Shown: positions 1,712 to 55,110 of the stretch, in pieces | Layout: every line of letters starts with the position of its first letter | How positions within the stretch are numbered: the first letter of the stretch is position 1 | Source of the DNA: an uncultured virus (IMG/VR IMGVR_UViG_3300005920_000007) | Lineage: Duplodnaviria; Heunggongvirae; Uroviricota; Caudoviricetes | Strand: one strand, 5' to 3' | Length of the DNA stretch: 64,000 bases | Virus record (IMG/VR): IMGVR_UViG_3300005920_000007 | Notes under the pieces: generated by a model | Told to the model about the DNA's origin: nothing | Seen by the model: only the letters and a program-made list of their open reading frames with translations | Databases searched by the model: none | Program-made: the position numbers and the translations under genes

Positions 1712-2383
1712 ATGCAAATTACATTTTCGCTTCGCAACAACAACCTTGTCATTGATAGCACACAGAGTTTAGACGACTTTTCCGCCGCATTCGCTGACCT
1801 CACAAAGCTGAAGAAGACGCACGTCAAAAGTACGCTGAGTAAGCTGTTAGGTCATAATCACATCAAGGCGCTTGAGAGCGTACTAACACCACTCCAGGAT
1901 TCACCACTTGCCCCTCTTTCGGACAAAACAATGAAAGGTCTTCAAGATCTTTACTGGTGGCTTGATGACAACATCGACATGAACACTGAGATGTATTTTG
2001 ATAGCCATGGTGAGGTTGACTCAAAAGCGTTGCAGGACATGTTATCGCCTTTGTTTGATATGATGCGACAACAACAGGCATCAGGTAAACCTATCACGAA
2101 CCGTGCAGAGGAAATCACCGCTAAACGCGATGGTATACTTTCCGACATGACGAAACATGCCCTTCAGCATGCGGATGTCGACAGCGAAACGCAGTTGGAG
2201 ACAAAGCATTATCACGCGGTTCAGGATGACGTTGAAGCGCTCAATCGAAAATTGTTTAACCATGATGATTATGGGAAAGCCTTGGCGCTACTTGAACGTG
2301 AGGGCATGCAAGATTTTGCAAACCTTCTTGCCGAGATGACAGAAACGAAAACGGCAGAGGATCACATCGCGCATACACTGTAG
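1712..2383 (+). CDS. Leader-associated family protein A
   Basis: Motif KKTHVKSTLSKLLGHNHIKAL; clear paralog of 53431-54045. Confidence 0.8.
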   Translation: MQITFSLRNNNLVIDSTQSLDDFSAAFADLTKLKKTHVKSTLSKLLGHNHIKALESVLTPLQDSPLAPLSDKTMKGLQDLYWWLDDNIDMNTEMYFDSHGEVDSKALQDMLSPLFDMMRQQQASGKPITNRAEEITAKRDGILSDMTKHALQHADVDSETQLETKHYHAVQDDVEALNRKLFNHDDYGKALALLEREGMQDFANLLAEMTETKTAEDHIAHTL

Positions 2384-2406
2384 CACCATGCTATCGCCAA
2401 TCACTT

Positions 2407-2431
2407 AAAGCCCGTACATACGGGCTTTTTT
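2407..2431 (+). terminator. Intrinsic terminator
   Basis: AAAGCCCGT/ACGGGCTTT plus T-tract. Confidence 0.85.
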
Positions 2432-2507
2432 ATTTTTGGTTATTTTCAATAACTACATATTTTTCTGATTTATATTGACATCACTCACAGACGGTGAGAT
2501 AATCATT

Positions 2508-2735
2508 ATACCTGCTCGACCCTACACTGCGGTGCGTGGTAACAGCAGAGGGAGGCTCCAGACCTTCGTCGCATCTCAGGTGCAACAGTACACAGTACCG
2601 TCGCACTCATGGCTAATACTGGCAACGTCTTCACTTAATAAAGACAACACACCCCTTTTTCGACATAACGTTACTTGACGAGTCGCAATTGGAACGAGAT
2701 GCACAATGATGATTACGACTCACTTGGAGAATGAT
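2508..2735 (+). ncRNA. Structured leader B
   Basis: Promoter TTGACA(2475)-N17-GATAAT; GCATCTC 2571-2577 pairs with GAGATGC 2696-2702 after GGAAC in hairpin GAGTCG/CGACTC. Confidence 0.7.
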
Positions 2736-3386
2736 ATGTCTACACCTGTTACTATCTTGGGCGCTGATCGCGCCACGTTAATGAACAACACCCGACGCGC
2801 ACTGGAAGGATTCCAAAAAGGACGTCCTGTTACGCGTGATGCATTGGTGAGAAAAGCGCTGGCCACCATCTTAGGGCAAGATAATGAGCACCTCCCTACC
2901 GCGGACTTCTCAATTAATAATGCCTCACTGGAGACACGCTTGCGTAACGCTATGGCGCCACTTACGTTTTTGCAAGACTGGGGCACTGGGGATGACGAGT
3001 ACCTTGATTTAAACTTTGAAGCGCGCGCGTGGGATGCCAATGCAGAGAAGGATGACATTACCGTCGACTACCGCATCAGCTTCCATATTCCGGGCAAATA
3101 CGCCTATTTCATTATCGGTAAAAATTATGGTAGTGGGATGGTCGGTGCCATTGAAATCCCGCTCTCACACCTGCCTTACGCGCCGATGTTATTGCTTGAA
3201 GGCAGCCGCGATGCGCAGTGGCTCGACGAGTCAGAGATTTTTGTTGGCATCGAAAAGATGTTGGATGTTTACCATGCCATTTGCGCCGACCCATTGCTAA
3301 AAGAAGTTTTTATCGATAACCGCCCTGCACTTTCTCTTAAATCCGCGAAAGATGTAGTCACAACATCGCACAGCGAGGTGCGTTGA
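2736..3386 (+). CDS. Leader-associated family protein B
   Basis: GGAG RBS; motif RDALVRKALATILGQDNEH. Confidence 0.8.
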   Translation: MSTPVTILGADRATLMNNTRRALEGFQKGRPVTRDALVRKALATILGQDNEHLPTADFSINNASLETRLRNAMAPLTFLQDWGTGDDEYLDLNFEARAWDANAEKDDITVDYRISFHIPGKYAYFIIGKNYGSGMVGAIEIPLSHLPYAPMLLLEGSRDAQWLDESEIFVGIEKMLDVYHAICADPLLKEVFIDNRPALSLKSAKDVVTTSHSEVR

Positions 3387-3387
3387 T

Positions 3388-3978
3388 ATGAGCAGCATAC
3401 TGCTTCATGAGAACAACCAAAGATTAGTGTATGACGATGCCACCTTAACGTGGGTGGCACCGCAAACCCAATACCCACTCATTAACCCTCATTCTCAGCT
3501 TCCGGCCATCCCTAGCCCCCGGCATAAGCATGAGATTGTGGGCACATTAACAATTCGGGTTTATGATACACGCTCACGTAAAGTAGAGCTTTTCCCCTTG
3601 GCATTACGCCAGGGGGTAATACATACGCCAAAACGCTGCTATGTCGGTGCAAGCTTAACGCTTGACGCTGTCAATAAGATGGGAATGTGGCTAAAATCCT
3701 GCGGAATTAACCATGAGTGGTCGCATCGCTATGTGACAAACATCATCCAAGCACTCAATCACGGCGATGTGCTATGTGGCGAAATTGAAGCCATCTACCG
3801 CAAAAAGAAACCCAATCCATCTGGAAAGCTTTATTTTGACCGCGCCGCCTACGAGTCTCGCCCGACCATTTTGACGTGGGGGGTTAACGTTGACCCACCA
3901 CGCCAACGCGCATGCTCACCCTTGTTGACGTTGGCGGTAAACAACAGTAAAACCATTGACAACGCTCACACCTTGTGA
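3388..3978 (+). CDS. hypothetical protein
   Basis: ORF coupled to the upstream gene, GAGG RBS. Confidence 0.7.
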   Translation: MSSILLHENNQRLVYDDATLTWVAPQTQYPLINPHSQLPAIPSPRHKHEIVGTLTIRVYDTRSRKVELFPLALRQGVIHTPKRCYVGASLTLDAVNKMGMWLKSCGINHEWSHRYVTNIIQALNHGDVLCGEIEAIYRKKKPNPSGKLYFDRAAYESRPTILTWGVNVDPPRQRACSPLLTLAVNNSKTIDNAHTL

Positions 3979-4017
3979 GACACTGACATTGTCAACACAA
4001 CGGTTAGAGAACCCATT

Positions 4018-4653
4018 ATGAATCAACCAACATGCGCTTCCATTTTGTCATACGCACCCACAGGCTGTCCGTCTCACTTACCATCCGCAGCAGGGGATGT
4101 TGATTTATATTTCAACACAGGCGCGCGCCATCATCGTTTTCACGCATTTGCGCTGCTAGATGGCAATCAGCTGACAAGCGTTGAGTTTTCACGTTGTCGT
4201 ACGCATTGCAAGCACAGTGAAGAAAGGCTTAACGCCGTTGTCAAAAGCTATCAGTCATATGACAAAAAGCTGGCTCGACAGTACCCTTTTGCCTACGGAT
4301 TTTTCGCTCACGCTGAGGCAGATACACCGTCACCTAAGGACGCATACCTTGACGACCACCAATTCTCGCTTGAGCTCATTGACGCCGAAACAACCATTGA
4401 TTATTACTGTTGCAGCGTCCCTGTCGCATTAGAGCATGGACGCCAAGGCTACCGACACTACCACAGCCTCCATCTTGTTTTTCATGAGAAGGGGAAGGAG
4501 TATGCTTACTCTCTCTTTGATGCGTCTCTGTGTCGTGACGCGATCCAACGCTACAATCAATGCGTGAAAGGCACTCGACGCTCACCTAAGTGCGCTGACG
4601 ACGGTTCACTACCACAGCACTTCTGCCCTGAAACTTACGCGCTGCAACATTAA
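4018..4653 (+). CDS. hypothetical Cys/His-rich protein
   Basis: Follows repeat copy 3956. Confidence 0.7.
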   Translation: MNQPTCASILSYAPTGCPSHLPSAAGDVDLYFNTGARHHRFHAFALLDGNQLTSVEFSRCRTHCKHSEERLNAVVKSYQSYDKKLARQYPFAYGFFAHAEADTPSPKDAYLDDHQFSLELIDAETTIDYYCCSVPVALEHGRQGYRHYHSLHLVFHEKGKEYAYSLFDASLCRDAIQRYNQCVKGTRRSPKCADDGSLPQHFCPETYALQH

Positions 4654-4672
4654 CTTTGATAAGGATTAAACC

Positions 4673-4975
4673 ATGCCTACACTAAAGGACTGCATCATTA
4701 CTGCGCCCAGCACAGGCGCGTGTGAAATTGATATAGAAAAAGCTAAAAAGTACTTCGATAAACACTGTTTCATCTCAAAGTGGCAAGGCGAGAAAGGCGA
4801 TGAATATCGACTGGTGAGAACCAAAGCCAATGCGCGAAATTTCAATCACGTCAAGGTCACCATCAGCGAAGAAGATGCATTAACCATCATCGACGCCCTT
4901 AACATGTACGAAATCACAAGCCGCATGTTTAACCGCGGCTCAACATTCCACGCGCCGCAGGACTCAGATTTTTAG
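4673..4975 (+). CDS. hypothetical protein
   Basis: AAGGA RBS. Confidence 0.75.
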   Translation: MPTLKDCIITAPSTGACEIDIEKAKKYFDKHCFISKWQGEKGDEYRLVRTKANARNFNHVKVTISEEDALTIIDALNMYEITSRMFNRGSTFHAPQDSDF

Positions 4976-5035
4976 ATATTGACTTTGCACACAGCATGTG
5001 AGACACTAGCACTGTCAACACATCAGAAAAAAACA

Positions 5036-5344
5036 ATGCCAAAAACAACCAAAGAGCAACTTGCCGCCATCAAATCGGACTACGAGTACGTTAAACGCAC
5101 GTATGGTGACGTCATTGATTTTACAGGCTCTGGCATGGAATCGACCCAGCTTGACAATATGCTAAAATCGCCCTGCAATGAAACGGCATTCGATTGTTTC
5201 AGAGAGCGCCTTATCTCCCTTTTTGAAGATGGCTATGAAGAGTCAGACAGGCAGTCTCGTGCATTGCCTTACTTCGATGACGAGCGGCTGCAAACCATTG
5301 GTGAGCGCTATTTGCTCCCCATTCCCGCGATTGATATTCAGTAA
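5036..5344 (+). CDS. hypothetical protein
   Basis: Follows repeat copy 4979; start corrected. Confidence 0.7.
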   Translation: MPKTTKEQLAAIKSDYEYVKRTYGDVIDFTGSGMESTQLDNMLKSPCNETAFDCFRERLISLFEDGYEESDRQSRALPYFDDERLQTIGERYLLPIPAIDIQ

Positions 5345-5364
5345 CGCGCGCGGAGAGATGAACT

Positions 5365-5529
5365 GTGCTATCAGAACACGATGTAAACACTTTAAAACAG
5401 CATCTTGAAGTAGGTAACTGGGTGAGTTGGAATGGTGGATACGGCATTGTAACTGCCCTTGATGACAAGTGCGTCTATGTCAGTGAAAACGCCATTGCGT
5501 GGCATAATATCACCTACGCCAAACGTTAA
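5365..5529 (+). CDS. small hypothetical protein (54 aa)
   Basis: GGAGAG RBS, GTG start; below the ORF-track cutoff. Confidence 0.45.
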   Translation: MLSEHDVNTLKQHLEVGNWVSWNGGYGIVTALDDKCVYVSENAIAWHNITYAKR

Positions 5530-5674
5530 TCTTTACGCGTAAAATTAATTGCGAGAACTGGCGTCACAATGCTTTCTTTTGTGATACCATCTTTTTCATC
5601 AACGATGATAAGGGCTGGCAGGAAGCAACGTCCATGAAAACCTGCCGCAAAGCAAACGACTATGCGAGGGCATT

Positions 5675-6175
5675 ATGACGGACAAAACAGCAACACTACT
5701 TTCACTCTTTCCTGGCGACATTAGCCGCACTCACGAGCAATATCAAACGATTAAAACGGGGCGCGCGCCATCACTTACGCAAGATGTATTTATTGCAAAC
5801 ATCCTTCGCGGCGTACAGCAGCATTCGCACGCACATCTTGGCAAAGCGGCCCTTTTATTGTCAGCAGATAAGGCCATTCCTCAAAAAGAAGGCATGACGT
5901 TTCTGGATGCCGCTATTACAACAACAACAGCAGCCATCTTCAGTTACGTTGTTGGTGTGCTCCACAGCGATGATGTGCCAGAGCGCATTGATGACATCAC
6001 AGCGACCACATGGAAATACATGGATAAAGAGCCGTCTAATAACATTGATACGAAAGCACTAGCGACACTTGAAGCACTCGAAGAAGACACCAACGAACGC
6101 ATCTTTACAGAGTCTGAAATTCAAGCAGAGCTTCGTGCGATGGCGGATGGCTGCGGGGGCGCTTGCACCATATAG
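5675..6175 (+). CDS. hypothetical protein with C-terminal GCGGACTI tail
   Basis: GAGG RBS; tail shared with 51588-52073. Confidence 0.75.
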   Translation: MTDKTATLLSLFPGDISRTHEQYQTIKTGRAPSLTQDVFIANILRGVQQHSHAHLGKAALLLSADKAIPQKEGMTFLDAAITTTTAAIFSYVVGVLHSDDVPERIDDITATTWKYMDKEPSNNIDTKALATLEALEEDTNERIFTESEIQAELRAMADGCGGACTI

Positions 6176-6277
6176 CGCGGCCAATTTGCACACTAATAAA
6201 ACAAAGTTTTCTTGACAACACACACTGTTTTTGAGATACTAATTCTGCCAACACAACAGATAACAAAGGAAACATTT

Positions 6278-6871
6278 ATGGCCACTAAGGGCGTAAACAA
6301 AGTCATCCTTGTAGGTAATCTTGGGAACGATCCTGAGGTTCGCTACATGCCTAACGGCAATGCCGTTGCCAACTTAAGTCTAGCAACAAGCGAAAGCTGG
6401 AAAGATCAGCAGGGTCAAGTTCAGGAACGCACTGAATGGCACCGACTTACCATGTATCGCCGACTGGCTGAGATTGCTGGTGAATACCTGAAAAAAGGTT
6501 CACAAATTTACGTTGAAGGTAAACTTCAAACGCGCAAATGGCAAGATCAGCAGGGCCAAGACAGGTACACCACTGAAATCATTGTCGATCAGATGCAAAT
6601 GCTCGGCGGTCGCAATAACAATGGTGGCGGCAACCAAGGCAATAACCAAAATCAAGGTGGTTACAACCAGAACCAAGGCGGCGGTAATCAAGGTGGTTAC
6701 AACCAAAACCAAGGCGGCGGTAATCAAGGTGGTTACAACCAGAACCAAGGCGGCAATAATGGCGGTGGCAACCAAGGTGGCGGTAATCAAAATCAAGGCG
6801 GTCAGAACGCTGGTAAGAACCCACCTATGGCAGAACCAGATTTTGACTTTGATGACGATATTCCTTTTTAG
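6278..6871 (+). CDS. ssb: single-stranded DNA-binding protein
   Basis: [32 protein letters not shown] acidic tip. Confidence 0.98.
6615..6805 (+). repeat. Coding tandem repeats in the SSB linker (33-bp [16 protein letters not shown] units)
   Basis: Repeated aatcaaggtggttacaacca. Confidence 0.85.
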
Positions 6872-7146
6872 CGAAGGTTAAGTTATTGATTTATAAGGTT
6901 TTTTGAGGGGCGGACTCCCACCCACTACCTGCCCCTCACCCTCCCCCGCTACACCAAACAATAATACCAAAAACACAAAGATGCACCGACTACAGAAGAA
7001 ATACTTGTCGCCAAATACAACAGCGCAATGTTCCAAATATCGACTTCACTACCTTTTCTTCCTCGTGTCTCCATTTTTAGCGCGAGGCATTGACAACCAT
7101 CGCAGATTTTGAGATACTAATCCTGTCAACACAACAGGAGAATGAC

Positions 7147-7554
7147 ATGCCTAAAATCACCCACATTGATAAGAGCAACGCACGTGATGTTGCTAATATT
7201 ATTAGAGATAAACTGAGCGAACTTAAAAACGAGTACGGTCTGACTGTCACGCTAGAAGGAAGTATGACACTTCAAGCGGATGGGTCCGGCATGTCGTCAA
7301 AAATCAATATTGCGGCTGACGTCAATAGAGAAGACATAGAGGCTCAGGCCAAGGCGGATTGGGCGCTTTACGCACCACGCTTCGACCTTCCTGCCGATGG
7401 TTACGGTACGGTGCTTATTATTAACAACAAGCAGTACACTGCCGCTGGCATTAAACCCAACCGACCTAAGAACTCATTGGTTATCAGGGATGTCAAAACA
7501 GGCGAAACCCGCATTGGTCCACCTTCGCTTTTTCATACCTGCAAAGTGGCGTAA
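7147..7554 (+). CDS. hypothetical protein
   Basis: Follows repeat copy 7090, AGGAG RBS. Confidence 0.8.
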   Translation: MPKITHIDKSNARDVANIIRDKLSELKNEYGLTVTLEGSMTLQADGSGMSSKINIAADVNREDIEAQAKADWALYAPRFDLPADGYGTVLIINNKQYTAAGIKPNRPKNSLVIRDVKTGETRIGPPSLFHTCKVA

Positions 7555-7623
7555 CCACACAACAAGAGGTGTCCTACGTAGGCCCCTCTCCCTACTTTTA
7601 GAACAAAACATTCAGGTAACACC

Positions 7624-7980
7624 ATGAATATGGAAGACGTTAAAGCAATGACTGAGGGTGAATCTCTCAACACTCCTATGGCACTATCTGTGGCCGATGC
7701 GGTGTATGCAAAAGGCTGGTGGATCGCTATTCCTAGCGACGGTGCGGAAGCGACGCTTGATGACGCAAAAGCGGCCATCAAAAAGGTTGACGGTGCCGCT
7801 ATTGATGTGGTTGTTCCGTTTGAACCTGATTATTGCGATAGCGTTCGCGTGAGCGGCACTGACGACGGTGTGTTTTCTGTTTACGTGTTGTGTAATACGG
7901 CGACACCGAGCTACACCTGCTCACTAGAAACGCTAACGGGCACCATCTGGAAAGCTGTTACTGAGTACAACAACCGCTGA
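7624..7980 (+). CDS. hypothetical protein
   Basis: AGGT RBS, ORF. Confidence 0.7.
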   Translation: MNMEDVKAMTEGESLNTPMALSVADAVYAKGWWIAIPSDGAEATLDDAKAAIKKVDGAAIDVVVPFEPDYCDSVRVSGTDDGVFSVYVLCNTATPSYTCSLETLTGTIWKAVTEYNNR

Positions 7981-8010
7981 GTGTAATGCTCACACTATCG
8001 GAGATAAGCG

Positions 8011-8355
8011 ATGTCATCAGCTCTATTAAGACAACTGCCAATGCCTGCACTGAAACGCTTACTTAAGCAATGTGGCATTCCATCTGAAAAAGGTGACATC
8101 GAAAAAACGTTCAATGTTGCGATCACTTTTAGTAGCAATAATAATGGCGAGATGTTCGCCACGGTGGATACGCGAACGGCGGATGATCTTTGGTGGATAG
8201 AAAATAAGCACAACCTTAAACATGCTGTGCGATGGCGTGAGTCATGCCACTCTAAGTACATTTTCACCAATTTTGCAGACACCTATGAGCGCGCCATGTT
8301 TATCGCCGTTATTGATGCTGTTAAGCCGGAGACATGCGCAATGCACCTTACTTAA
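8011..8355 (+). CDS. hypothetical protein
   Basis: GGAG RBS. Confidence 0.7.
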   Translation: MSSALLRQLPMPALKRLLKQCGIPSEKGDIEKTFNVAITFSSNNNGEMFATVDTRTADDLWWIENKHNLKHAVRWRESCHSKYIFTNFADTYERAMFIAVIDAVKPETCAMHLT

Positions 8356-8459
8356 TCGGTGGTGCATCATTCGTTTTCAACGGCAGATAGGCGTATTATC
8401 TGTTGACAAAAAACACAGGTTGTGCGAACCTGTTTTAGTCAACACAAATGGACCGCATT

Positions 8460-9425
8460 ATGGCGTTAACAGAGAAAGACAAGAAGCTATTAATAAACAA
8501 GCCTAACCGACACTTTGCTCGAACTGGCGACGGCATGGGCGTACGCATGATAGTGTGCAGCGCAACGCAAGCCATCCTTGATGTCTACGAAAGCGAACGT
8601 GACAATATTCAAGGCGAGCTGATCATTGTTCGTAACCGAAAGGATGAAACCCTGGCGGCCTCCGCGCAAAACAGTGCCTGCAACGCCTTATTGGTCTTCA
8701 CTTATCAACCTGACAGTTATTTTACATCGACTTGTTATGAAGTTACGCTATCCGATGCGCTACGCAAGCGTGCGTTAACTGATTACTTACCACGGGAACC
8801 TATGATGTCGCCAACAGAATTTATGCCGCCTTTATTGTGGTTGCTACCGCAGGAAAAATACCGTTTTTACTTTTCACAAACCAGCAAGAATGCTTCAGGC
8901 AGTCAAAAAACCAACTCGCGTCAGAGCGGGATGGAAATCGCCGTCAGTGCAGCCGACATGGTGGCCTACGTCGGCAAGGCTATCCCAGAACATTTACGTC
9001 ACCTTACTCACGTACAGAACGCGCAAGGGGCATTTATTTGGAGTGCAAAACACGGTTGGGAAAACGAGTGGTTTGTTGAACTTGTTGGACAGTGGGTCGC
9101 GCTGATTGATGCGGATATGGAGGTTAATAACCAGAGCATTGAATCCCTTGCCCAGAATAATGTTAGCCTACCTTATTGTCTTGACTGTGTGTTTGACGAC
9201 ACCCCATTTACACCCAAATTTGATATAGGTTTCGACGACGCTACGCAGCGTGTAAAGCTCACCATGAAGCTCAATTGGCCTCTTGATGCTCGGACACCGA
9301 TTGATAGCGCGACCTTGCTGCTGCCAGCAGAACCGCATACGCTGTTTGATGTTCGCCGTAGCGATGGTAAAACTATCCGTGGACGACTTGAAGACGGCCT
9401 ATTACCTAGCGCATTACGCGCATAA
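8460..9425 (+). CDS. hypothetical protein
   Basis: Follows repeat copy 8403. Confidence 0.75.
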   Translation: MALTEKDKKLLINKPNRHFARTGDGMGVRMIVCSATQAILDVYESERDNIQGELIIVRNRKDETLAASAQNSACNALLVFTYQPDSYFTSTCYEVTLSDALRKRALTDYLPREPMMSPTEFMPPLLWLLPQEKYRFYFSQTSKNASGSQKTNSRQSGMEIAVSAADMVAYVGKAIPEHLRHLTHVQNAQGAFIWSAKHGWENEWFVELVGQWVALIDADMEVNNQSIESLAQNNVSLPYCLDCVFDDTPFTPKFDIGFDDATQRVKLTMKLNWPLDARTPIDSATLLLPAEPHTLFDVRRSDGKTIRGRLEDGLLPSALRA

Positions 9426-9444
9426 CGTTATCACTGGAATGCAC

Positions 9445-9660
9445 ATGAAACTTGTCGACCGAATATTGGCCCATTTGCGAACGCAGCCCAATGGAAGCAA
9501 TTCCGATTGGGGGATCATGAACGCGCTTTACCCTGACGCGCAACAAGGCTCTCCATCGAATGGCGCACGCATCGCCAACATCCGGCGAACAGTTCACTCG
9601 CACGAAGACTTATGCTTCTCGCAGAATGACAGTCGAATAGTGCTGCTTATTGAAAGATAA
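9445..9660 (+). CDS. small hypothetical protein, possible winged helix
   Basis: MKLVDRILAHLR...; fold is a guess. Confidence 0.55.
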   Translation: MKLVDRILAHLRTQPNGSNSDWGIMNALYPDAQQGSPSNGARIANIRRTVHSHEDLCFSQNDSRIVLLIER

Positions 9661-9691
9661 GCTCCTTAAACCTCACAATATTTCGTTAACC

Positions 9692-9717
9692 AAAAGCGCC
9701 ATTTTAGGCGTTTTTTT
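9692..9717 (+). terminator. Intrinsic terminator
   Basis: GCGCC/GGCGT plus T-tract. Confidence 0.75.
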
Positions 9718-9752
9718 GTTGACTTTCATGTTCAATACTGCCAAAATGAAAA

Positions 9753-9937
9753 TGCTTCACAGTGATGTGCGGCAAACACAGGTGAGAACCTAGCAGCCTT
9801 CCGGCGCCATGCGCTTGCAAATATCATTAACGATGAACATTACGCTATCATTTAGCAATCCACGTTTACATTATGAACTGTAGCGTGTCATCACCCCGGG
9901 AAGGCAAGAAAAAGACACGCAATACGGAGAATGATGT
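9753..9937 (+). ncRNA. Structured leader C
   Basis: Promoter TTGACT(9719)-N17-CAAAAT; GCCTTCC 9796-9802 pairs with GGAAGGC 9899-9905 in the loop of GCGTGTC/GACACGC. Confidence 0.7.
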
Positions 9938-10750
9938 ATGAACACACCTAAGTTATTTTTTACCACGCTTGTTAATGCTCTGCGCACTAAAGATGATGCA
10001 AAGGCATTGCGTCAGCACATGAATGACGTGAACGCCAAGCACTTCGGAAACACCCAAAAACCCGCCAAATTGTTCGCTTATTTCGCTGACATGATGGGCA
10101 CATCAAACGCAAACAAGCTATCAGCGTTACTTGATGAAAAAGTCAGCGACAATTTTGACGATCCTGCAACCTTCATCAGCACACTACTTAGCCCCATGAT
10201 GTCGCGTGTTGCGCGTGTTGGCGAAGTGGGTAGAGTGATTTCAGGTAGCGACCCAGCCCCTAGCTGGTTTATGAACCTTCCATTATTAACCATAAAAACG
10301 ACGGGATACACCGACGATCCTGAAAAAACCACCTGCTATCTTGGCGTTATTATCAACGTTGAATACTCTAGGGCCTTCGGTAAACTTATCGTTGATGCAA
10401 CATTAGCATTGTTTGATGATGCTGATCTCTCTGCCTGTGATATTGGATACGAAGTAGAACTTGAGACGCAAAATGACATCACCGAATACTTTAGTAGCGA
10501 GATGGAAATGGGATTTGGTCAAGCGACAAGCATCTCACTTCATGAGGGCGGCAAATTATTCTCCTCGTTAACTGGATTAACAACCTCTACGTTTGATGAA
10601 GGTGACGAACCCATTATCCCCTTTCTCGTCAACGGGATTGGCCATGAGCTAATTCGAACATTGTCGCCGGTGTGCGACTTGACGTTAAATTGCGGTGACA
10701 TCGCATGCCAACAGATGTTTTTAGCATCCGGTAAAATAGAAAAACGTTAA
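9938..10750 (+). CDS. Leader-associated family protein C
   Basis: GGAG RBS; motif KPAKLFAYFADMMGTSNANKL; acidic C-terminal domain. Confidence 0.8.
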   Translation: MNTPKLFFTTLVNALRTKDDAKALRQHMNDVNAKHFGNTQKPAKLFAYFADMMGTSNANKLSALLDEKVSDNFDDPATFISTLLSPMMSRVARVGEVGRVISGSDPAPSWFMNLPLLTIKTTGYTDDPEKTTCYLGVIINVEYSRAFGKLIVDATLALFDDADLSACDIGYEVELETQNDITEYFSSEMEMGFGQATSISLHEGGKLFSSLTGLTTSTFDEGDEPIIPFLVNGIGHELIRTLSPVCDLTLNCGDIACQQMFLASGKIEKR

Positions 10751-10813
10751 TTTGTTCATAAAAAAACGCCACCGGCAACCTGGTGGCGCTTGTGTTCTTT
10801 ATCGAAAATCGTC

Positions 10814-10860
10814 GAGAAAACCCCGTGATCAGAGCGAAGCGATGTCGCTGGGTAGTTCAC
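10814..10860 (+). mobile_element. Possible IS200/IS605- or IS607-type right-end relic
   Basis: GAAAACCCC...AGAGCGAAGCGA...GGGTAGTTCAC resembles remembered tnpB-element 3' ends; no transposase present. Confidence 0.35.
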
Positions 10861-10932
10861 TTTAGAGGTGATTGACTACCTACACTGCCTGTGAGACAAT
10901 GGCTATTGTCAACACAACGTAGGTAATCATTT

Positions 10933-11649: not shown

Positions 11650-11689
11650 ATAAAAGTTGCACCCGTAACCACACTTTGTTAATATTTAA

Positions 11690-11856
11690 CTGTCGCCGCT
11701 AATAGCGACTGCCTCCTCCACCCTAACGGGCAAGGCCCATATTAGCGATGCTTTTCGACCTGAATCTTATTGAAACTACTGTCGCCAGCGGTTCATCAAT
11801 AACAGGCGCAAGGGAGGAACGGACTGTTATATTGAACCGAAAATGGAAACAGTATT
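11690..11856 (+). ncRNA. Structured leader D
   Basis: Promoter TTGCAC(11657)-N17-TAATAT; TCCTCC 11714-11719 pairs with GGAGGA 11813-11818 in the loop of ATAACAG/CTGTTAT. Confidence 0.65.
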
Positions 11857-12771
11857 ATGAAATTCACTACATCTTTCATTGACGCAGCGCTCGCACGCTT
11901 ACGCAACACCCTTAGCCTTCACGTATCGCGTGATCGTGTGTCTTCAGAGTTAAAACGCATGGCCTACAAAGCCGATGCCGACGATAAGGCGAAACTTAAC
12001 GCGCTACGTCATCAGCTTGATACCCTTGCGCTTGAAGACACGCCAATGGACAGAAAACGCGCACAGGAAACCCTTGCAACCGTACTTATCGGTCGGAATT
12101 ATGCGTTACTACAGCGCGATGCGATTTGCACTGACAACCCTACTCCTGCGAACTTTAATGCAGCCAGAGAAATGCTGGGCAATGCATTATCGCTGTTGCA
12201 TGACATGCAGTATTATGAGCGTTCAGCAAAGCACGCCTACGCACAATTGCTTAAGTTGCTCACTGAGCATGCAGGGGATGCCTTGCCTGTTCATGGCGAT
12301 GGCATCACACCATGGGAGAGCAGCGCTTCGCTGTTCGCATTTTATCGTGATAAACTCATTGCGCATAAGCCGACATTCACCTACACCGTTGAAGACTCAG
12401 CCGCGCCGCTTTTTACTCGTTCTGGATGCGACAAATACAACGTCAAAGTCACATTTGCTTTTGGCGAACACACCATCAAGCTGACTTGGGATGTCGCTAA
12501 CAATGAGTATGCGGAATTTGATGATGAGAGCATTGACATCGAACTTGACGGTTCCCCTATTGAGGAGGTTACGAACTTAGAGCCTTGTGATAATGGGAAG
12601 TATGTATTCGACCTCGTTAGTGATGTCATGTCGGATTACTTGAGAGAAAATGTTAGACTTGCCGACGACGACGTTAAGCCTCCAACAGATCCGTCACGCA
12701 ACGCCGAACGAGAACTCACAATGAATGCGCTTCTGTTAAGCCAGAATCCACCTCCACCAATAAACAAATAA
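11857..12771 (+). CDS. Leader-associated family protein D
   Basis: Motif DRKRAQETLATVLIGRNYALL. Confidence 0.8.
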   Translation: MKFTTSFIDAALARLRNTLSLHVSRDRVSSELKRMAYKADADDKAKLNALRHQLDTLALEDTPMDRKRAQETLATVLIGRNYALLQRDAICTDNPTPANFNAAREMLGNALSLLHDMQYYERSAKHAYAQLLKLLTEHAGDALPVHGDGITPWESSASLFAFYRDKLIAHKPTFTYTVEDSAAPLFTRSGCDKYNVKVTFAFGEHTIKLTWDVANNEYAEFDDESIDIELDGSPIEEVTNLEPCDNGKYVFDLVSDVMSDYLRENVRLADDDVKPPTDPSRNAERELTMNALLLSQNPPPPINK

Positions 12772-12780
12772 GGTCGTTTT

Positions 12781-13407: not shown

Positions 13408-13470
13408 AAAGATTGCATTTAGCCTCTCTTTTTGAGACAATAAAAACGTCAACACAACAGGAGAAACTTC

Positions 13471-13971: not shown

Positions 13972-14014
13972 TTAATGGAGGGCGGCACATCGGCCGCTCT
14001 CAAGAGGACTTCTT

Positions 14015-14272: not shown

Positions 14273-14315
14273 TTTAATGAGTGATTGCTGGTTCCGACAG
14301 CGATAGCCACGACAA

Positions 14316-14660: not shown

Positions 14661-14730
14661 CCACATTGACATGTTGACATCACTCACAGAATTTGAGACA
14701 CTGACATTGTCAACACAACAAGGAATACAC

Positions 14731-17205: not shown

Positions 17206-17832
17206 ATGAGCAACCCATTACGCCACCTTGCCACCGCCATTGTTACTGCTTGTCAAACTAAAGACAACGCAAAACACGTCAAACAGAGCACCGTCCTTGA
17301 TGTTCTTACTAAGCATGAAGGCTACAGAAGCATACAGGCACGAGACAACGCAACTGTCACGTGTAACGATGACAAACCACTGCCATCGGACGTTATCGCA
17401 CTGCGAGGGCTTCTTTACGCCAACTATCCGCATTCTGACTTACTTCCCATAGAGCTTGGTGAAGCCATCACATTTAAAGGCTCTCTCGTTTCGCACCCTG
17501 ATTGGGGAAGCGATGCACCCTTTGCCGTCATGTGGGATTTACTCAGCGATGAGCACCATGCTGCGGTCGATGAGTTTGAGCGTTGGGATCGCTTGTGCGA
17601 CCGCCTTGAAGACGTTATTGAGTCTGGCACTGACGCTATAAACGAAGTGTTGATTGCTTTCCCACCACGTATTGCGCAGTTTCTTCACGCAGAGTTTGAT
17701 GAAGTGACCGACGACACCATGTTGCCTGTTAAACAGGCTGCGGAGAAATATCGCGCCCTAGAGCGCTTTCAATCTGATGTTGAGAGTGTCACGGATGCGC
17801 TTCGCAATGCCCGTTCGGCACAAGACAGATAA
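17206..17832 (+). CDS. Leader-associated family protein E
   Basis: GGAG RBS; motif KQSTVLDVLTKHEGYRSIQA. Confidence 0.8.
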   Translation: MSNPLRHLATAIVTACQTKDNAKHVKQSTVLDVLTKHEGYRSIQARDNATVTCNDDKPLPSDVIALRGLLYANYPHSDLLPIELGEAITFKGSLVSHPDWGSDAPFAVMWDLLSDEHHAAVDEFERWDRLCDRLEDVIESGTDAINEVLIAFPPRIAQFLHAEFDEVTDDTMLPVKQAAEKYRALERFQSDVESVTDALRNARSAQDR

Positions 17833-27447: not shown

Positions 27448-27888
27448 ATGTCTACGATGAAAAAAATGGCTTACGCGGATGCATTAGCCATAAAAATTCT
27501 TGCTGCTAAAGCATTAGGTCAAGAGACCACCTGCCATGACATTGCAACAAAACAATTGCAATGTGAGACGCTACACCCTATGGATGGCGCGCGATTAGAA
27601 CGCGAAGCCACGGCCATTCACAATGCGCTTGCGGCCAACGAAGCCAAGATGAAAGAAGCCAACCTTGTTGCACAGCGCCTCGCCGTTGAATACGGTTTCG
27701 CTCAAGCTTCAACCTCATACTTAATCTCAGATATTGATTATGATGAGGGCCATGATGCATTACCCACCTCACTTACCATGACGCTGGATACGCCGTTGGA
27801 CGGAGAAGCGCTTCAAGAACGTGCCTCCGACTTTATCTCAAACGAAACCGGCTTTTGTCATAGCGGCTTTAGCGTTTCATTGGCATAG
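27448..27888 (+). CDS. hypothetical protein
   Basis: Follows repeat copy 27387. Confidence 0.75.
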   Translation: MSTMKKMAYADALAIKILAAKALGQETTCHDIATKQLQCETLHPMDGARLEREATAIHNALAANEAKMKEANLVAQRLAVEYGFAQASTSYLISDIDYDEGHDALPTSLTMTLDTPLDGEALQERASDFISNETGFCHSGFSVSLA

Positions 27889-34059: not shown

Positions 34060-35031
34060 ATGTCATTACGTCAACAGATCGTGTCTAAATCACACATGCA
34101 GGGGCTACGAGACTCGCTGCGAGAATCATTCTCCCCGAATAAGCTTGCCATCTTGCTATCACACACCATTGACGACCCTGCTGTCCAGGCTGCAATGAGC
34201 AAGGCCATTGGCTCAAAAGGCGATAATAATCTCGACGCACGCGTTGCCGACGACATCACAGCCACACTGCTTGGCTTTAACAACACCCATGAAATGTTCG
34301 CGCATTACAATAATGTGACGCATGTTCGCCGCTGGGAATTTTTACACAAAAACAAGTACGAAGATTATGCGCCCGACTACTTGGTTGAAGTCGGTGTCCA
34401 TTTTTCTGTACTTGATGCCATCGCCTTAGAGGACAGCGATTTCGAGCACGACCGTATTGAGGAACGTTTTGAGCTCCTTGCTATGGATGAGGCCTACCCT
34501 GCCACTGATGAAGAGCTCGCAACCTGTATCACGTCAAAAAGCGATGCGCCTGCGGTTGTGCTATCAATGTCAAGAGATGGCCTATTTGATGGCATTAAAA
34601 TGTCAGACAGAACAATGGCGACACAGGCATTCACCCTGCTTGAATCAATGATGTTAACTACAAGCGCCGGCATTCCCTTTGCACTGGATAGCGACGAGGT
34701 GATGAAACGCTACACGCTCTCGGATATGGCGATATTCTCGGTTTCCCAGGATGTCGTTGATAGTGAGCTAGACCTCCTAACCGTTTTTCTTGAAGAGGGG
34801 GTGTTGGAGGGGGCACTTACCGTTCCACTATCAGCCGCATTGCTGCCACTCGCACCGCTCTCAATCAGTGACGACATACACACCTATGCCTTATTGGATG
34901 GGTACACGCTGCATTTTTCTCCGGCATCGATGATGTTCATCTTGGCGCATAACGACACCCCCTGCTTTGGCGGCGGTATACACCTCCATGAGAACGATCT
35001 TCGACGCCAAGCATTTACTGGCTTGGCATAA
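34060..35031 (+). CDS. Leader-associated family protein F
   Basis: GAGGA RBS; motif ARVADDITATLLGFNNTHEM. Confidence 0.8.
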   Translation: MSLRQQIVSKSHMQGLRDSLRESFSPNKLAILLSHTIDDPAVQAAMSKAIGSKGDNNLDARVADDITATLLGFNNTHEMFAHYNNVTHVRRWEFLHKNKYEDYAPDYLVEVGVHFSVLDAIALEDSDFEHDRIEERFELLAMDEAYPATDEELATCITSKSDAPAVVLSMSRDGLFDGIKMSDRTMATQAFTLLESMMLTTSAGIPFALDSDEVMKRYTLSDMAIFSVSQDVVDSELDLLTVFLEEGVLEGALTVPLSAALLPLAPLSISDDIHTYALLDGYTLHFSPASMMFILAHNDTPCFGGGIHLHENDLRRQAFTGLA

Positions 35032-52179: not shown

Positions 52180-52899
52180 ATGCGTACGTCATTTGTCACC
52201 TTGCTGTTTTCTGTATTTCTATCCACATCAGCGCTTGCTGTTGATGTCGTAAAGAAAAGCAGTAGCGGCATTTGCCACGACACCAGCAGCAACTGGTATG
52301 AAAAAACGAAGAACTTCACAGCCTATGCCACCATGGAGGCCTGTGTTGATTCTGGTGGACGCGCACCGCGCAATTACACCGGCACTAAACCGAAAGATAA
52401 CCTACCGCAAGGCGAACGCTATGATCGCGACGCATGGGAGCACTGGGTGGACGACGACAATGATTGCCAGAACACGCGTGCTGAGGTCTTGATTAGTCAC
52501 TCAGCGACCCCTGTTCTTTACAATAACATTATAAAACGATGTTATGTGACACGCGGTAAGTGGTATGGCGTCTATTCTGGCGAATACTATTATGACGACG
52601 ACGATCTTGATATTGACCACATTGTGCCCCTTGCCTATGCGCATGCGCACGGTGGTGATAAATGGAGCGCCGCTCAAAAGCGTGCTTTTGCCAACGATAT
52701 GGACAACCTTCTCCCTGTTAGCGCATCATTAAACAGGCAGAAATCTGCAAAAGGGCCGACTGACTGGATGCCGCCTTATCAACCTTACCGCTGCGAGTAT
52801 TTAGGTGAGTTTGACGGCATTATGAAAAAGTACTCTCTTGAGTATTTCCCTCACGAACTGCGCGTCATCAATAAAATGAAAAGCGCCTGCAATATGTAA
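52180..52899 (+). CDS. secreted HNH endonuclease (DUF1524-like)
   Basis: Signal peptide; DIDHIVPL, FAND..NL, NRQKSAKGP. Confidence 0.88.
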   Translation: MRTSFVTLLFSVFLSTSALAVDVVKKSSSGICHDTSSNWYEKTKNFTAYATMEACVDSGGRAPRNYTGTKPKDNLPQGERYDRDAWEHWVDDDNDCQNTRAEVLISHSATPVLYNNIIKRCYVTRGKWYGVYSGEYYYDDDDLDIDHIVPLAYAHAHGGDKWSAAQKRAFANDMDNLLPVSASLNRQKSAKGPTDWMPPYQPYRCEYLGEFDGIMKKYSLEYFPHELRVINKMKSACNM

Positions 52900-53355: not shown

Positions 53356-53430
53356 TGCTTTTCTCCTTGGTGGTGAAGTTAAATTATACCACCATATGAC
53401 CTATTTTCCAATTGCTTTTGCCCTTCTTAT

Positions 53431-54045
53431 TTAGCGCGACGTTAATACGTCATACTCTAAACTGTTCCTCACAATGCTGCCCATGATCTCAGCAACATCA
53501 ACCAGGCCTTGCTGCTCAAGTGTCACCAGGGCTTCTTTTAACAAGGGGTGGTTGGCCAGCTCTCGCGCATCATCACTTAACGCCTCTGCGGTAGACTCGT
53601 GCGCGTCAGCGGGCACATCGCTCATATCATCCACTTGCTGTGCGTCCAATATGTTTGATGACACTTGTGATTTCCACATATTTATTTTTTGCTCGCATGC
53701 TTTCAATGCATCATTTGGCGCATCTTCATCGCTATGCTTCTGTTGAAATACATGCGCTTTAGGGGGGAGGGCGGCCAGCACGTCTGACGCCCTAACCTCG
53801 TGTGTATCGTCAAGTAACGCCCCCGCTTTCGCTTGGATTTTTAGCCAGTTGTACAGGCCATCAATAGCCGCAGAGGGAGCAATCACCGGTGCCGGTGTTA
53901 ATTGATTGGTTAGTATCGCAATATCAGCACAGTTTTGCCCTTTTGCGATGGCGCTTCGCAGTCGCGTGGCGGGCATCTTCGTGTGCTGCGCAGTGTCTTT
54001 TGAAAATTGGTCGAGTGAATGTTTGCTATCAATAATAATAAACAC
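53431..54045 (-). CDS. Leader-associated family protein G
   Basis: GAGGA RBS, GTG start; paralog of 1712-2383. Confidence 0.8.
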   Translation of the reverse strand: MFIIIDSKHSLDQFSKDTAQHTKMPATRLRSAIAKGQNCADIAILTNQLTPAPVIAPSAAIDGLYNWLKIQAKAGALLDDTHEVRASDVLAALPPKAHVFQQKHSDEDAPNDALKACEQKINMWKSQVSSNILDAQQVDDMSDVPADAHESTAEALSDDARELANHPLLKEALVTLEQQGLVDVAEIMGSIVRNSLEYDVLTSR

Positions 54046-54258
54046 AATAATATCCTCTTTGTCGTCGGTATAAGGTGATGAGTTCGGCCATTGCCCAACA
54101 ACCGACTAAAAAGTCATATTGTGGTTGATGCAAATAGTGGTTGATGCAGTTTACCTTACTCAGGCAGACCATAAGACAGGTCGGCGAGTGGCCGTAGAGG
54201 GATGCCGTCCCAAGCACCGGCTTATCAGATGCATAACATGCAAATGGGCAGCGCTATG
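54046..54258 (-). ncRNA. Structured leader G
   Basis: Promoter TTGACA(54293)-N17-TATTAT; CGGCCA (54194-54189) pairs with TGGCCG (54090-54085) inside hairpin GTCGGT/ACCGAC. Confidence 0.7.
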
Positions 54259-54301
54259 GTGAAAATAATATCAACATCAACCTGTGCTGTCAACATAAAG
54301 C

Positions 54302-54330
54302 AAAAGGGCTGCAAGCGCAGCCCTTTTTTT
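54302..54330. terminator. Intrinsic terminator
   Basis: AAAAGGGCTGC/GCAGCCCTTTT. Confidence 0.8.
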
Positions 54331-54339
54331 GATCACCCA

Positions 54340-55110
54340 CTAACTCGAAAGCGTAACTAAAAAACATCCTTCTGGAATATCATCACGTGGTACCACAGCA
54401 AGGCCTGATGTCGTTTGGATGTCATGAAAACAAGCCAAAAACCCAGTCTTATTACGCAGCGTTTCCATAACATCTTCGCTGCTTCCATCGAAACCAACAG
54501 GGACATGAATGGCGACGACAGAGTAAACGTCCTGAATGCGGTCGATCACATGCTCTTCAAATTGGTCAATAGCGCCGATGTTTACTTTATCTGCACCCAT
54601 AAGTGTGGTTGAACTTGCATCTGGCATCACCCACTCTTCATTGGTGTTTTCATTAATATAAAGCGTAAAGCGCTTCGTATCACTCGTTTCAATAATATCT
54701 TGCATGGCGTATTCTGCCATGCAGTGAACGGTTACATCACCCAATAAACTCTGCTTGAATTGCTGTTCGCCATTCGGGAAGCCGATAAGTTTTAAGGTAA
54801 TATCGCGGAGGCGGTCTCGCCCTTTACTTTTATCCGTATTTATCGTGATATCGAGTGTGTCAGCAAGGATGCGCTTGACGTGCTCCTCAGTGACACAAAG
54901 TGACGCTTCGTCTTTTACCTCTGCCATAGGGTTGTTGACATAAGTGTTAACTTCACCTTTTACGACAGGGTACGCCAAGCATGAGCAAAGGGGGCATTCG
55001 CAGGTTGTGAAAGACTGACCGCTATCGAAGCGCTCACTTGCACGTCTTACAGCATTAAATTCGCTTTCATTTTGCGTAAAGTTACAGTTATCGCAGCGAT
55101 AATACATCAT
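54340..55110 (-). CDS. Leader-associated family protein H with N-terminal Zn ribbon
   Basis: CDNC...CPLC; motif GRDRLRDITLKLIGFPNG; start corrected to follow the GAGGA RBS. Confidence 0.8.
   Translation of the reverse strand: MMYYRCDNCNFTQNESEFNAVRRASERFDSGQSFTTCECPLCSCLAYPVVKGEVNTYVNNPMAEVKDEASLCVTEEHVKRILADTLDITINTDKSKGRDRLRDITLKLIGFPNGEQQFKQSLLGDVTVHCMAEYAMQDIIETSDTKRFTLYINENTNEEWVMPDASSTTLMGADKVNIGAIDQFEEHVIDRIQDVYSVVAIHVPVGFDGSSEDVMETLRNKTGFLACFHDIQTTSGLAVVPRDDIPEGCFLVTLSS

What the first reader, a model, noticed from the sequence alone, without database searches (positions are those of the whole stretch)
1712..55110. Leader-associated proteins share a short helix-helix-G motif fused to unrelated domains
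Seen: A KKTHVKSTLSKLLGHNHIKAL, B RDALVRKALATILGQDNEH, C KPAKLFAYFADMMGTSNANKL, D DRKRAQETLATVLIGRNYALL, E KQSTVLDVLTKHEGYRSIQA, F ARVADDITATLLGFNNTHEM, G PATRLRSAIAKGQNCADIAIL, H GRDRLRDITLKLIGFPNG. The rest of each protein is unrelated except A and G; H adds an N-terminal Zn ribbon. From memory this resembles the small 'glyoxalase superfamily' (Glyoxalase_8) helical domain, pattern S.ALE.vA...Gf.dWn.L. Inference: it is the nucleic-acid-binding module that recognises the leader, and the fused domains are interchangeable effectors.
Basis: partly seen in the sequence, partly recalled or inferred. Interest (0 to 1): 0.75.

Follow-up and report, generated by a model that had tools for sequence, protein, structure and literature searches.

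The report
Weak shared N-terminal helix motif
Eight fast-evolving orphan proteins of a giant marine mobile element share a faint helix-turn pattern that may be a common handle, but it is not shown to be one domain or to bind their long leaders.

Summary
All eight motif strings are in the window, in eight ORFs. Each ORF has its own sigma-70-type promoter and a 115-213-nt 5' leader. Six of the eight also have a terminator just upstream.

The shared motif is faint:
- Pfam, PHROGs, NCBIfam and PADLOC find nothing in any of the eight, and no Glyoxalase_8.
- Profile comparison supports three pairs, not one family: A/G (P 1.6e-10), C/E (P 8e-4) and F/H (P 5e-3). The other 25 of 28 pairs are at noise.
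It beats 98-99.5% of controls. Over the full lengths it does not beat shuffles.
- The link to the N-terminal three-helix part of PF20066 is only a lead, for E and F.

The leaders share no sequence, k-mer, Rfam family or unusual fold energy. A common leader-recognising module therefore has no common target.

What holds up is modularity. The motif region is the best-conserved part of each protein (79-100% against 43-65% identity). C-terminal parts, and the whole D coding region, are swapped or strongly diverged between near-identical relatives.

Verdict: a possible new variant of a small helical handle. Interest is moderate to low.

The parts
1712..2383 (+). Gene A (223 aa, acidic orphan). Motif at 1811-1873; promoter from 1478; leader 1513-1711; terminator 1450-1476 upstream.
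   Evidence: Paralogue of G. Only 3 homologue clusters among 5.8 billion proteins.
2706..3386 (+). Gene B (226 aa). Motif at 2835-2891; promoter 2475-2503; leader 2510-2705; terminator 2407-2428 upstream.
   Evidence: The diverged allele P0022 keeps the motif region at 89% identity against 43% for the rest, and has a longer C-terminus.
9938..10750 (+). Gene C (270 aa). The better-supported motif copy is 9989-10054. Promoter 9719-9747; leader 9754-9937.
   Evidence: N-terminus related to E. An RNA-library contig bridges leader and coding region, 9770-10659.
11857..12771 (+). Gene D (304 aa). Motif at 12049-12111; promoter about 11657-11685; leader 11692-11856.
   Evidence: The coding region is only 62.5% identical in a relative whose neighbours are 92-100% identical. 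The leader is 90% identical at DNA level. In 3 of 4 runs laid, contigs replace 11854-12790 with unlike sequence of equal length.
17206..17832 (+). Gene E (208 aa from the ATG). Motif at 17281-17340; promoter 16974-17001; leader 17009-17205, holding a terminator-like hairpin at 17061-17080.
   Evidence: PF20066 lead. The C-terminal half is replaced in allele P0020. An RNA-library contig covers 17022-17613.
34060..35031 (+). Gene F (323 aa from the ATG). Motif at 34237-34296; promoter from about 33864; leader 33899-34059.
   Evidence: Best match of the eight to my PF20066 N-terminal profile: 6.1 bits, and 47 hhalign columns at P 0.0019. Motif-to-motif alignment with H: 46% over 26 columns, P 0.005.
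53431..54045 (-). Gene G (204 aa, GTG start). Motif at 53911-53973; promoter from 54293; leader 54258-54046.
   Evidence: Paralogue of A. Allele P0021 keeps the motif region at 89% identity against 47% for the rest.
54340..55344 (-). Gene H, with a cysteine-rich zinc-ribbon-like segment before the motif at 54769-54822. The promoter starts at 55344. The start codon is uncertain. An ATG at 55302 gives almost no leader. An ATG at 55194 gives a 115-nt leader.
   Evidence: The database orthologue P0013 was called from the upstream ATG. Weak RYYR-CCHC Pfam hit.
27448..27888 (+). Ninth ORF with motif-like segments. It sits behind the element's standard promoter (27387-27429) and has a short leader.
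   Evidence: Top or near-top non-member. Sequence; promoter.

Best explanation
The eight genes are separately insulated accessory cassettes. Each has its own sigma-70-type promoter, a long 5' leader and an acidic orphan protein, and six have a terminator just upstream. They sit in a marine mobile element of at least 486 kb whose SSB is Alteromonas-like. The element's other genes use about 40 copies of one stereotyped promoter with short leaders.

The proteins are modular. A short, locally basic, comparatively conserved helical segment (helix, helix, glycine turn, helix) lies near the N-terminus in seven of the eight. An acidic C-terminal part follows, and this part diverges fast or is replaced between relatives.

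I read the motif as a real but very divergent constant 'handle' shared by most of these proteins. It is provable only as three pairs: A/G, C/E and F/H. It works like the promiscuous N-terminal three-helix module of Pfam PF20066, but it is not a demonstrable member of that family.

Its most likely role is docking or targeting of variable effector parts to a common partner, that is, protein-protein contact. I do not think it recognises the proteins' own leaders, because the leaders have nothing in common.

Shown: the coordinates, promoters and leaders, the three pairs, the conservation gradient and the allele replacement. Inferred: that all eight share one module, and what the module does.
For: - Controls reach its score in 1/100 and 2/100 trials (six proteins) and 3/200 and 1/200 (five proteins without C). 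The grouping by leader was made independently of the protein sequences.
- Leave-one-out ranks are A 2, B 4, C 1, E 6 and F 1 of 117.
- hhalign supports pairs A/G at P 1.6e-10, C/E at P 8e-4 and F/H at P 5e-3. All three align motif to motif.
- MAFFT puts the glycine of all eight in one column.
- In diverged alleles the motif region is 79-100% identical against 43-65% for the rest. This holds for A/P0003, B/P0022, D/P0018, G/P0021 and E/P0020.
- The secondary structure of the low-confidence A model (helices 20-31, 35-45, 51-58) has the same spacing as the confident PF20066 N-terminal model (helices 10-24, 28-38, 44-60; pLDDT 82).
- The PF20066 N-terminal module does occur alone, in tandem, and fused to unrelated domains such as DnaB_C-type ATPase and HEPN/RES-NTD1.
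- Cassette behaviour: D is 62.5% identical amid neighbours at 92-100%. Its coding region is replaced exactly from start to stop in RNA-library contigs of 3 of 4 runs laid.
Against: - No library profile hits any of the eight.
- 25 of 28 family pairs are at the level of the reversed-sequence null.
- The N-terminal restriction was chosen after the fact.
- A, B and D alone are not significant.
- D and G fail leave-one-out.
- Iterating the PF20066-type profile with E, F and C does not recruit A, B, D, G or H.
- A non-leader ORF (27448-27888) scores as well as the best of the eight.
- The A model is unreliable (pLDDT 50).
- No partner, hub NTPase, capsid or secretion gene was identified in the window, so the docking role is pure inference.
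Confidence: 0.42

Rival explanations
1. There is no common module. The pattern is a generic amphipathic helix ending in a glycine turn, which a motif hunt will find in any set of helical, acidic proteins. Only the pairs A/G and C/E, and perhaps F/H, are related, each by ordinary duplication. The eight genes share only their cassette layout.
For:
- 25 of 28 profile pairs are at noise.
- No library hit in any database.
- Similar segments occur three times in a non-leader ORF.
- Leave-one-out scores are all at or below 7 bits, and D and G fail.
- The look-up for B found nothing.
Against: - The N-terminal unbiased search rediscovers the same register at about the 1% level, also without C.
- The motif region is the most conserved part in five diverged allele pairs.
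- Seven of eight copies lie within the first 100 residues.
Confidence: 0.35
2. All eight carry a true, highly diverged member of the PF20066 (Glyoxalase_8) N-terminal three-helix module.
For: - E's N-terminus has PF20066 clusters as all ten of its best named look-alikes (score 0.81-0.82).
- F and E rank 2nd-3rd of 125 against two versions of my module profile, at the right positions. hhalign gives F 47 columns at P 0.0019.
- Same helix spacing.
- Same habit of N-terminal fusion to unrelated domains.
Against: - 0 of 8 have a PF20066 hit in Pfam, even at E<=10.
- Scores fall to 2-4 bits with the broader profile.
- A, B, C, D, G and H are not recruited.
- The tryptophan invariant in the module is missing in all eight.
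- The look-up score is in the range that a third of shuffled proteins reach, according to the text.
Confidence: 0.12
3. The segment is a nucleic-acid-binding (helix-turn-helix-like) module through which each protein binds its own leader RNA or DNA and autoregulates.
For: - The segment is locally rich in Lys and Arg inside otherwise acidic proteins (sequences).
- A helix, glycine turn, helix layout is compatible with helix-turn-helix.
- The insignificant Foldseek list for the reference module contains homeodomain, Myb and sigma-region-4 chains (E 2-10).
- D's leader is kept at 90% identity while its coding region is replaced, so the leaders matter.
Against: - The leaders share no sequence (0 of 7 recovered), no enriched k-mer and no Rfam family. 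They show no unusual stability. A shared module would therefore lack a shared site.
- No helix-turn-helix family is hit above threshold.
- H may have almost no leader.
- The ninth motif-like ORF has a short leader.
Confidence: 0.07

Closest known systems
N-terminal three-helix part of Pfam PF20066 (Glyoxalase_8), function unknown
   Same: About 50 residues: helix, short loop, helix, glycine-containing loop, helix. The first helix is basic. The module sits at the N-terminus of otherwise unrelated proteins. It also occurs alone as 50-70-aa proteins, many of them in phages. E and F give the best, though non-significant, matches.
   Different: No Pfam hit for any of the eight. The invariant tryptophan after the glycine is absent. 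Loop lengths differ. In H the segment is in the middle of the protein. I found no paper naming the family (0 papers for the family name or accession).
Effector-associated adaptor domains (EADs) of prokaryotic conflict systems (Kaur et al., eLife 2020, PMC7159879; I saw the search listing only, and the concept is partly recalled)
   Same: Small helical modules shared by proteins with unrelated effector parts. C has a sub-threshold match to EAD5 (E 0.072, 13.4 bits against a cut-off of 27).
   Different: EADs are defined by the same domain also sitting on a hub NTPase in the locus. No such NTPase was found by Pfam among 107 window ORFs. The EAD5 match is below threshold and lies outside the motif (residues 57-118).
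Leading-region establishment and anti-defence islands of conjugative plasmids, with Frpo/ssi single-strand promoters (Samuel & Burstein, Nature 2024, PMC11541004; I read passages)
   Same: Co-oriented small genes of unknown function with an SSB gene, 50-350-nt regulatory regions carrying canonical promoter hexamers and an A+T-rich upstream element, and fast-evolving accessory genes.
   Different: In the single-strand DNA folds, the promoter hexamers of the eight regions are not held in a long imperfect hairpin. No origin of transfer, relaxase or mating-pore gene is seen in the window. It is not known whether the element is a plasmid or a phage.
Variable internal-protein loci of T4-type phages, with a shared N-terminal capsid-targeting sequence (recalled from memory; no call)
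   Same: A short constant N-terminal signal on otherwise unrelated, fast-evolving small proteins, each with its own promoter.
   Different: That signal is about 10-20 residues at the extreme N-terminus and is cleaved off. Here the segment is about 45 residues and starts 0-60 residues in (mid-protein in H). No capsid or protease gene is in the window.

Membership tests
Pfam PF20066 (Glyoxalase_8), N-terminal helical part | Match to the Pfam model at or above its gathering score (23.7 bits) | tested here: not met
   0 of 8 proteins have any PF20066 row at E<=1 on whole proteins or at E<=10 on excised N-terminal pieces. HMMER's filters may hide very weak matches.
Pfam PF20066 (Glyoxalase_8), N-terminal helical part | Match to a profile built from genuine N-terminal modules, with filters off, better than other proteins of the window | tested here: inconclusive
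   19-sequence profile: F ranks 2 (6.1 bits, E 0.064) and E ranks 3 (4.2 bits) of 125, at the right place. G, C, D and B rank 19-80 at wrong places. A and H are not reported. 24-sequence profile: E 3.7 bits and F 2.2 bits, and a non-leader ORF is on top. hhalign: F rank 2 (P 0.0019) and E rank 5.
Pfam PF20066 (Glyoxalase_8), N-terminal helical part | Invariant residues of the module: a proline before helix 1, two alanines, the glycine, and a tryptophan four residues after the glycine | tested here: not met
   The glycine is present in all eight. The tryptophan is present in none (segments). A proline before helix 1 is seen only in C, E, F and possibly B.
Pfam PF20066 (Glyoxalase_8), N-terminal helical part | Three-helix fold with the glycine in the loop between helices 2 and 3 | tested here: inconclusive
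   Reference model: pLDDT 82, helices 10-24, 28-38, 44-60. The A model has the same spacing (20-31, 35-45, 51-58) but mean pLDDT 50. The other six families were not folded because the cap is 2 jobs.
Frpo/ssi single-strand DNA promoters (for the eight upstream regions) | The -35 and -10 hexamers are paired with a complementary arm in a long imperfect hairpin of the transferred strand | tested here: not met
   Template-strand folds with DNA parameters leave the hexamers unpaired or only in short local pairs in all 8 regions. My marks for D and F were 2 nt off.
Frpo/ssi single-strand DNA promoters (for the eight upstream regions) | Sequence similarity to the known Frpo/ssi elements | not tested
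Known cis-regulatory RNA families (Rfam 15) | Covariance-model match in a leader | tested here: not met
   0 matches at gathering scores. At E<=5 there are 9 matches, and none lies in any of the eight leaders.
Helix-turn-helix DNA-binding domains | Profile or fold match to a helix-turn-helix family | tested here: inconclusive
Effector-associated adaptor domains (EAD) | The same small domain also occurs on a hub NTPase encoded in the locus | tested here: not met
   Pfam on 107 further window ORFs gives significant hits only to SSB, a deaminase, PcfJ and GmrSD_C/HNH, plus DUF4527 below its cut-off. No STAND or other hub NTPase is found. Only 64 kb of an element of at least 486 kb was examined.

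The most novel reading that the evidence does not exclude
The eight proteins, plus the ninth at 27448-27888 and others outside the window, form an arsenal of variable effectors. They share a very divergent PF20066-like three-helix handle that docks them to one hub of a giant marine element, such as a particle, a transfer apparatus or a host factor. Each effector gene is a swappable cassette kept under its own long regulatory leader. This would give the function-unknown PF20066 N-terminal module, common in phage micro-proteins, its first role as an effector adaptor.
Probability: 0.13. Interest if true: 0.65.

Novelty: new variant of a known kind. Interest (0 to 1): 0.33.

Why it matters
If the handle is real, it marks a set of modular, rapidly exchanged accessory proteins in a very large marine element that is almost entirely uncharacterised. 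15 RNA-library runs, spread among the 11 studies of all holders, hold at least half of a window stretch. It would also give a first functional context to a small helical module that is common in phages and has no known function.

If the handle is not real, the lasting result is simpler. Eight self-contained promoter-leader-gene cassettes show allele replacement inside otherwise near-identical genomes. That pattern is typical of genes in an arms race, and they are worth testing for defence or counter-defence activity.

Tried and rejected
**Relatives of the element**
- Megablast of 1-20000 against phages finds only an 84-nt SSB piece.
- Megablast of 1-25000 against plasmids finds one 41-nt match.
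- The promoter pattern finds nothing in viral contigs or in species genomes.
- Protein A finds nothing in viral contigs.
- No whole genome is held for the window, and the metagenome records could not be searched as handles. Plasmid versus phage therefore stays open.
- tblastn of the PcfJ-like protein finds only 22.6%-identical PcfJ genes on three large Vibrio plasmids.
- A PHROG-bearing ORF has relatives at 27-35% identity in assorted phages.

**PF20066 members among relatives of the presumed host**
- 0 of 5 Alteromonas genomes have a match.
- 0 of 400 genomes of the class are over the cut-off; 2 have weak matches. One weak match, L082, served as the seed for the module profile.

**Searches that added nothing new**
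- The profile of the eight segments against 5.8 billion proteins ('longer' lengths) returned 24 proteins. By my reading of their sequences all are orthologues of the eight. There was no new architecture and no PF20066 label.
- A single PF20066-type sequence against the window ORFs discriminates nothing.
- A profile of the module against PDB sequences gives one hit at E 1.9.
- NCBIfam and PADLOC give nothing for the eight and three diverged alleles, apart from one sub-threshold NCBIfam row for D at E 0.092.

**Leaders as a family: rejected at sequence level**
- By eye I saw a C-rich 5' block and a G-rich 3' block that could pair. Duplex energies are no better than shuffles.
- MAFFT plus RNAalifold gives 0 pairs.
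- Pairwise blastn E-values are all at or above 0.05 in a 1.4-kb set.
- Leave-one-out nhmmer recovers 0 of 7.
- No covariance model was built.

**RNA-library contigs**
- They cannot show starts, ends or levels, and parts without cover mean nothing.
- I use only what they bridge and replace.

**Other look-ups**
- Earlier-findings look-ups returned nothing.
- No complex prediction was run, because no binding pair is claimed.
The count rests.

Full report
**The observation**

All eight strings of the finding are present, each once, at the coordinates listed under parts. They lie in eight ORFs of 204-339 codons. Seven copies start 26-75 residues into the protein. In H the copy lies after a cysteine-rich, zinc-ribbon-like stretch.

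**Context**

The window is part of a metagenome contig of 486,177 bp; locus L083 is identical to it. A close relative lies on a contig of 229,889 bp.

It has no near match among phage or plasmid records.

Its SSB is 82% identical overall to Alteromonas chromosomal SSBs, and up to 99% in the N-terminal fold.

Of 107 further ORFs, Pfam gives significant hits only for the SSB, a deaminase, a PcfJ-like protein and a GmrSD_C/HNH nuclease, plus one DUF4527 match below its cut-off. PHROGs adds a few families of unknown function.

About 40 genes sit behind one stereotyped promoter (38 and 40 copies in repeat families D1 and D6; two-box scan). The start codon follows roughly 17-20 nt after the promoter's downstream box.

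**The eight genes are laid out differently**

Each has another sigma-70-type promoter. A, B, C, E, F and G also have an intrinsic terminator just upstream. The predicted leaders are 115-213 nt. For H the leader depends on which ATG is used.

Short contigs from one RNA library bridge leader and coding region of C (9770-10659), D (11737-12424) and E (17022-17613). Another contig ends at the terminator before E's promoter. This is a weak hint that the leaders are transcribed with their genes. The tool warns that contigs cannot show transcript ends.

**Are the leaders a family?**

No, not at any level I could test:
- Leave-one-out nhmmer recovers 0 of 7 left-out leaders.
- No k-mer is shared beyond Markov controls.
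- Rfam has nothing, either at gathering scores or at E<=5 in any leader.
- Fold-energy z-scores are -0.2 to -1.8.
- A C-rich/G-rich pairing that I saw by eye is no better than shuffles.
- The single-strand promoter (Frpo) layout described for plasmid leading regions (PMC11541004, passages read) is not met. In single-strand DNA folds the promoter hexamers are not held in a long hairpin.

The leaders do matter, however. D's leader is 90% identical in the relative, while D's protein is only 62.5% identical.

**Is the protein motif one domain?**

*Library searches say nothing.* Pfam, PHROGs, NCBIfam and PADLOC give no family for any of the eight. There is no PF20066 row even at E<=10 on excised pieces.

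*The proteins are very rare.* A has 3 homologue clusters in 5.8 billion proteins. A profile of the eight segments finds 24 proteins. By my reading of their sequences these are only the eight and their orthologues.

*Pairwise comparison.* Profile comparison of the eight families, with orthologues added, gives three related pairs:
- A/G, P 1.6e-10
- C/E, P 8e-4, 40% identity over 35 columns
- F/H, P 5e-3, 46% identity over 26 columns

Each pair aligns motif to motif. The other 25 of 28 pairs are at the level of a reversed-sequence null.

*Set-level tests are mixed.*
- Leave-one-out HMM ranks are A 2, B 4, C 1, E 6, F 1, H 14 and G 50, with D not reported, of 117. All scores are at or below 7 bits, and some ranks are helped by the paralogue in the training set.
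- An unbiased gapless block search over the full lengths prefers an acidic block.
Controls reach its score in only 0.5-2% of trials. This also holds without C and for A, B, D and F together, but not for A, B and D alone.

That restriction was chosen after seeing the motif. I therefore take the signal as about the 1-5% level.

A ninth ORF (27448-27888) with a short leader carries similar segments. The pattern is therefore not exclusive to leader genes.

**The Glyoxalase_8 recollection**

PF20066 is a 143-position model. Its first roughly 55 positions form a small module. Starting from one weak genomic match, I harvested this module with a search of 1.84 billion representatives and a word-indexed profile search.

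The module occurs in several settings:
- alone, as 54-69-aa proteins
- in tandem
- at the N-terminus of DnaB_C-type ATPases, of a HEPN/RES-NTD1 protein and of other unrelated proteins

Its predicted structure is a confident three-helix unit with the glycine in the loop between helices 2 and 3. That structure matches only small uncharacterised phage proteins and nothing informative in the PDB. I found no paper on the family.

Against profiles of this module, F and E rank 2nd-3rd of 125 window ORFs at the right positions, but with 2-6 bits. The other six are not found.

A language-model look-up puts PF20066 clusters on top for E, at lead level only. It finds nothing for B.

The module's invariant tryptophan is missing from all eight.

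The low-confidence model of A has the same helix spacing.

So the eight work like this module in architecture, but membership fails the tests that could be run.

**What holds up: modularity and turnover**

In five diverged allele pairs, the motif region is 79-100% identical and the rest 43-65%. E's allele P0020 is near-identical for about 110 residues and then drops to 36-57%. B's allele P0022 has a different, longer C-terminus.

In the relative contig, the neighbours of D are 92-100% identical and D is 62.5%.

In contigs of 3 of 4 runs laid, the stretch 11854-12790 is replaced by unlike sequence of the same length, while both flanks are kept. This stretch runs from D's start codon to the next gene. 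In 2 of 4 runs, the 126 nt just upstream of E's predicted transcription start are replaced by 739 nt.

All eight proteins are acidic, with pI 4.6-5.0, against 33% of 82 other ORFs below pI 5.

**Reading**

I think the eight are swappable accessory cassettes whose products combine a constant N-proximal helical handle with variable acidic parts. This handle may be one very divergent module (confidence 0.42).

Its role is inferred, not shown. I favour docking to a common partner over recognition of the leaders, because the leaders offer no common site.

The main rival (0.35) is that there is no common module beyond three duplicated pairs.

Full PF20066 membership (0.12) and leader binding (0.07) are less likely.

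Supplementary files of the papers were not consulted. They could hold Frpo reference sequences that would allow a direct comparison.

Noticed in passing
window, about 40 sites, e.g. 3956-3998, 21535-21577, 35518-35560, 63774-63816: One stereotyped promoter is repeated about 40 times (38-40 copies). It has a canonical -35 hexamer, an inverted repeat inside the spacer that overlaps an extended -10, and a conserved 12-nt box at the transcription start that is the inverted repeat of the -35 region. The start codon follows about 17-20 nt after that box. It looks like a promoter with a built-in operator for an element-encoded regulator. The exact pattern was found neither in viral contigs nor in species genomes.
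   Followed up: partly
whole window; loci L083 and L086: The window belongs to a 486,177-bp metagenome contig. A close relative lies on a 229,889-bp contig. 15 RNA-library runs hold half or more of 9500-18000, among the 11 studies of all holders. Whether the element is a megaplasmid or a giant phage could not be settled.
   Followed up: partly
6212/6278-6871 (+): The SSB gene is 82% identical overall to Alteromonas chromosomal SSBs, and up to 99% in the N-terminal fold. This suggests recent capture from the host. Its tail is built of 36-nt Gly/Asn/Gln-rich tandem repeats.
   Followed up: partly
11854-12790 and 16881-17008: Exact cassette boundaries appear in contigs from other samples. D's coding region is replaced from start codon to the next gene in 3 of 4 runs. 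The 126 nt upstream of E's predicted transcription start are replaced by 739 nt in 2 of 4 runs.
   Followed up: partly
17061-17080 (+): A terminator-like hairpin with a T-run lies inside E's leader, about 55-80 nt after the predicted start. It could be an attenuator. No counterpart was noticed in the other leaders.
   Followed up: no
30554-31372 (-): This ORF has an N-terminal signal-like segment and a C-terminal hydrophobic stretch followed by basic residues. From memory, this resembles a PEP-CTERM-type sorting tail (sequence). It has no Pfam hit.
   Followed up: no
10933-11649 (+), 40518-42689 (-), 52180-52899 (+): These are the few recognisable genes. A cytidine/dCMP deaminase-fold protein lies between C and D. 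A 723-aa protein has a PcfJ-like C-terminus, related at 22.6% identity to PcfJ genes of large Vibrio plasmids. There is also a GmrSD_C/HNH nuclease.
   Followed up: partly
35115-35219 and 35301-35405 (+): A 105-nt internal direct repeat (73% identity) lies inside ORF 35097-35468.
   Followed up: no
L086 3245-5191, and the window stretch 19615-21147: Relative to the window, the related contig has about 2 kb of extra sequence after the SSB-adjacent small ORF. No tblastn match to window ORFs 19615-20724 and 20734-21147 appears in it. Gene content turns over even between near-identical elements.
   Followed up: no
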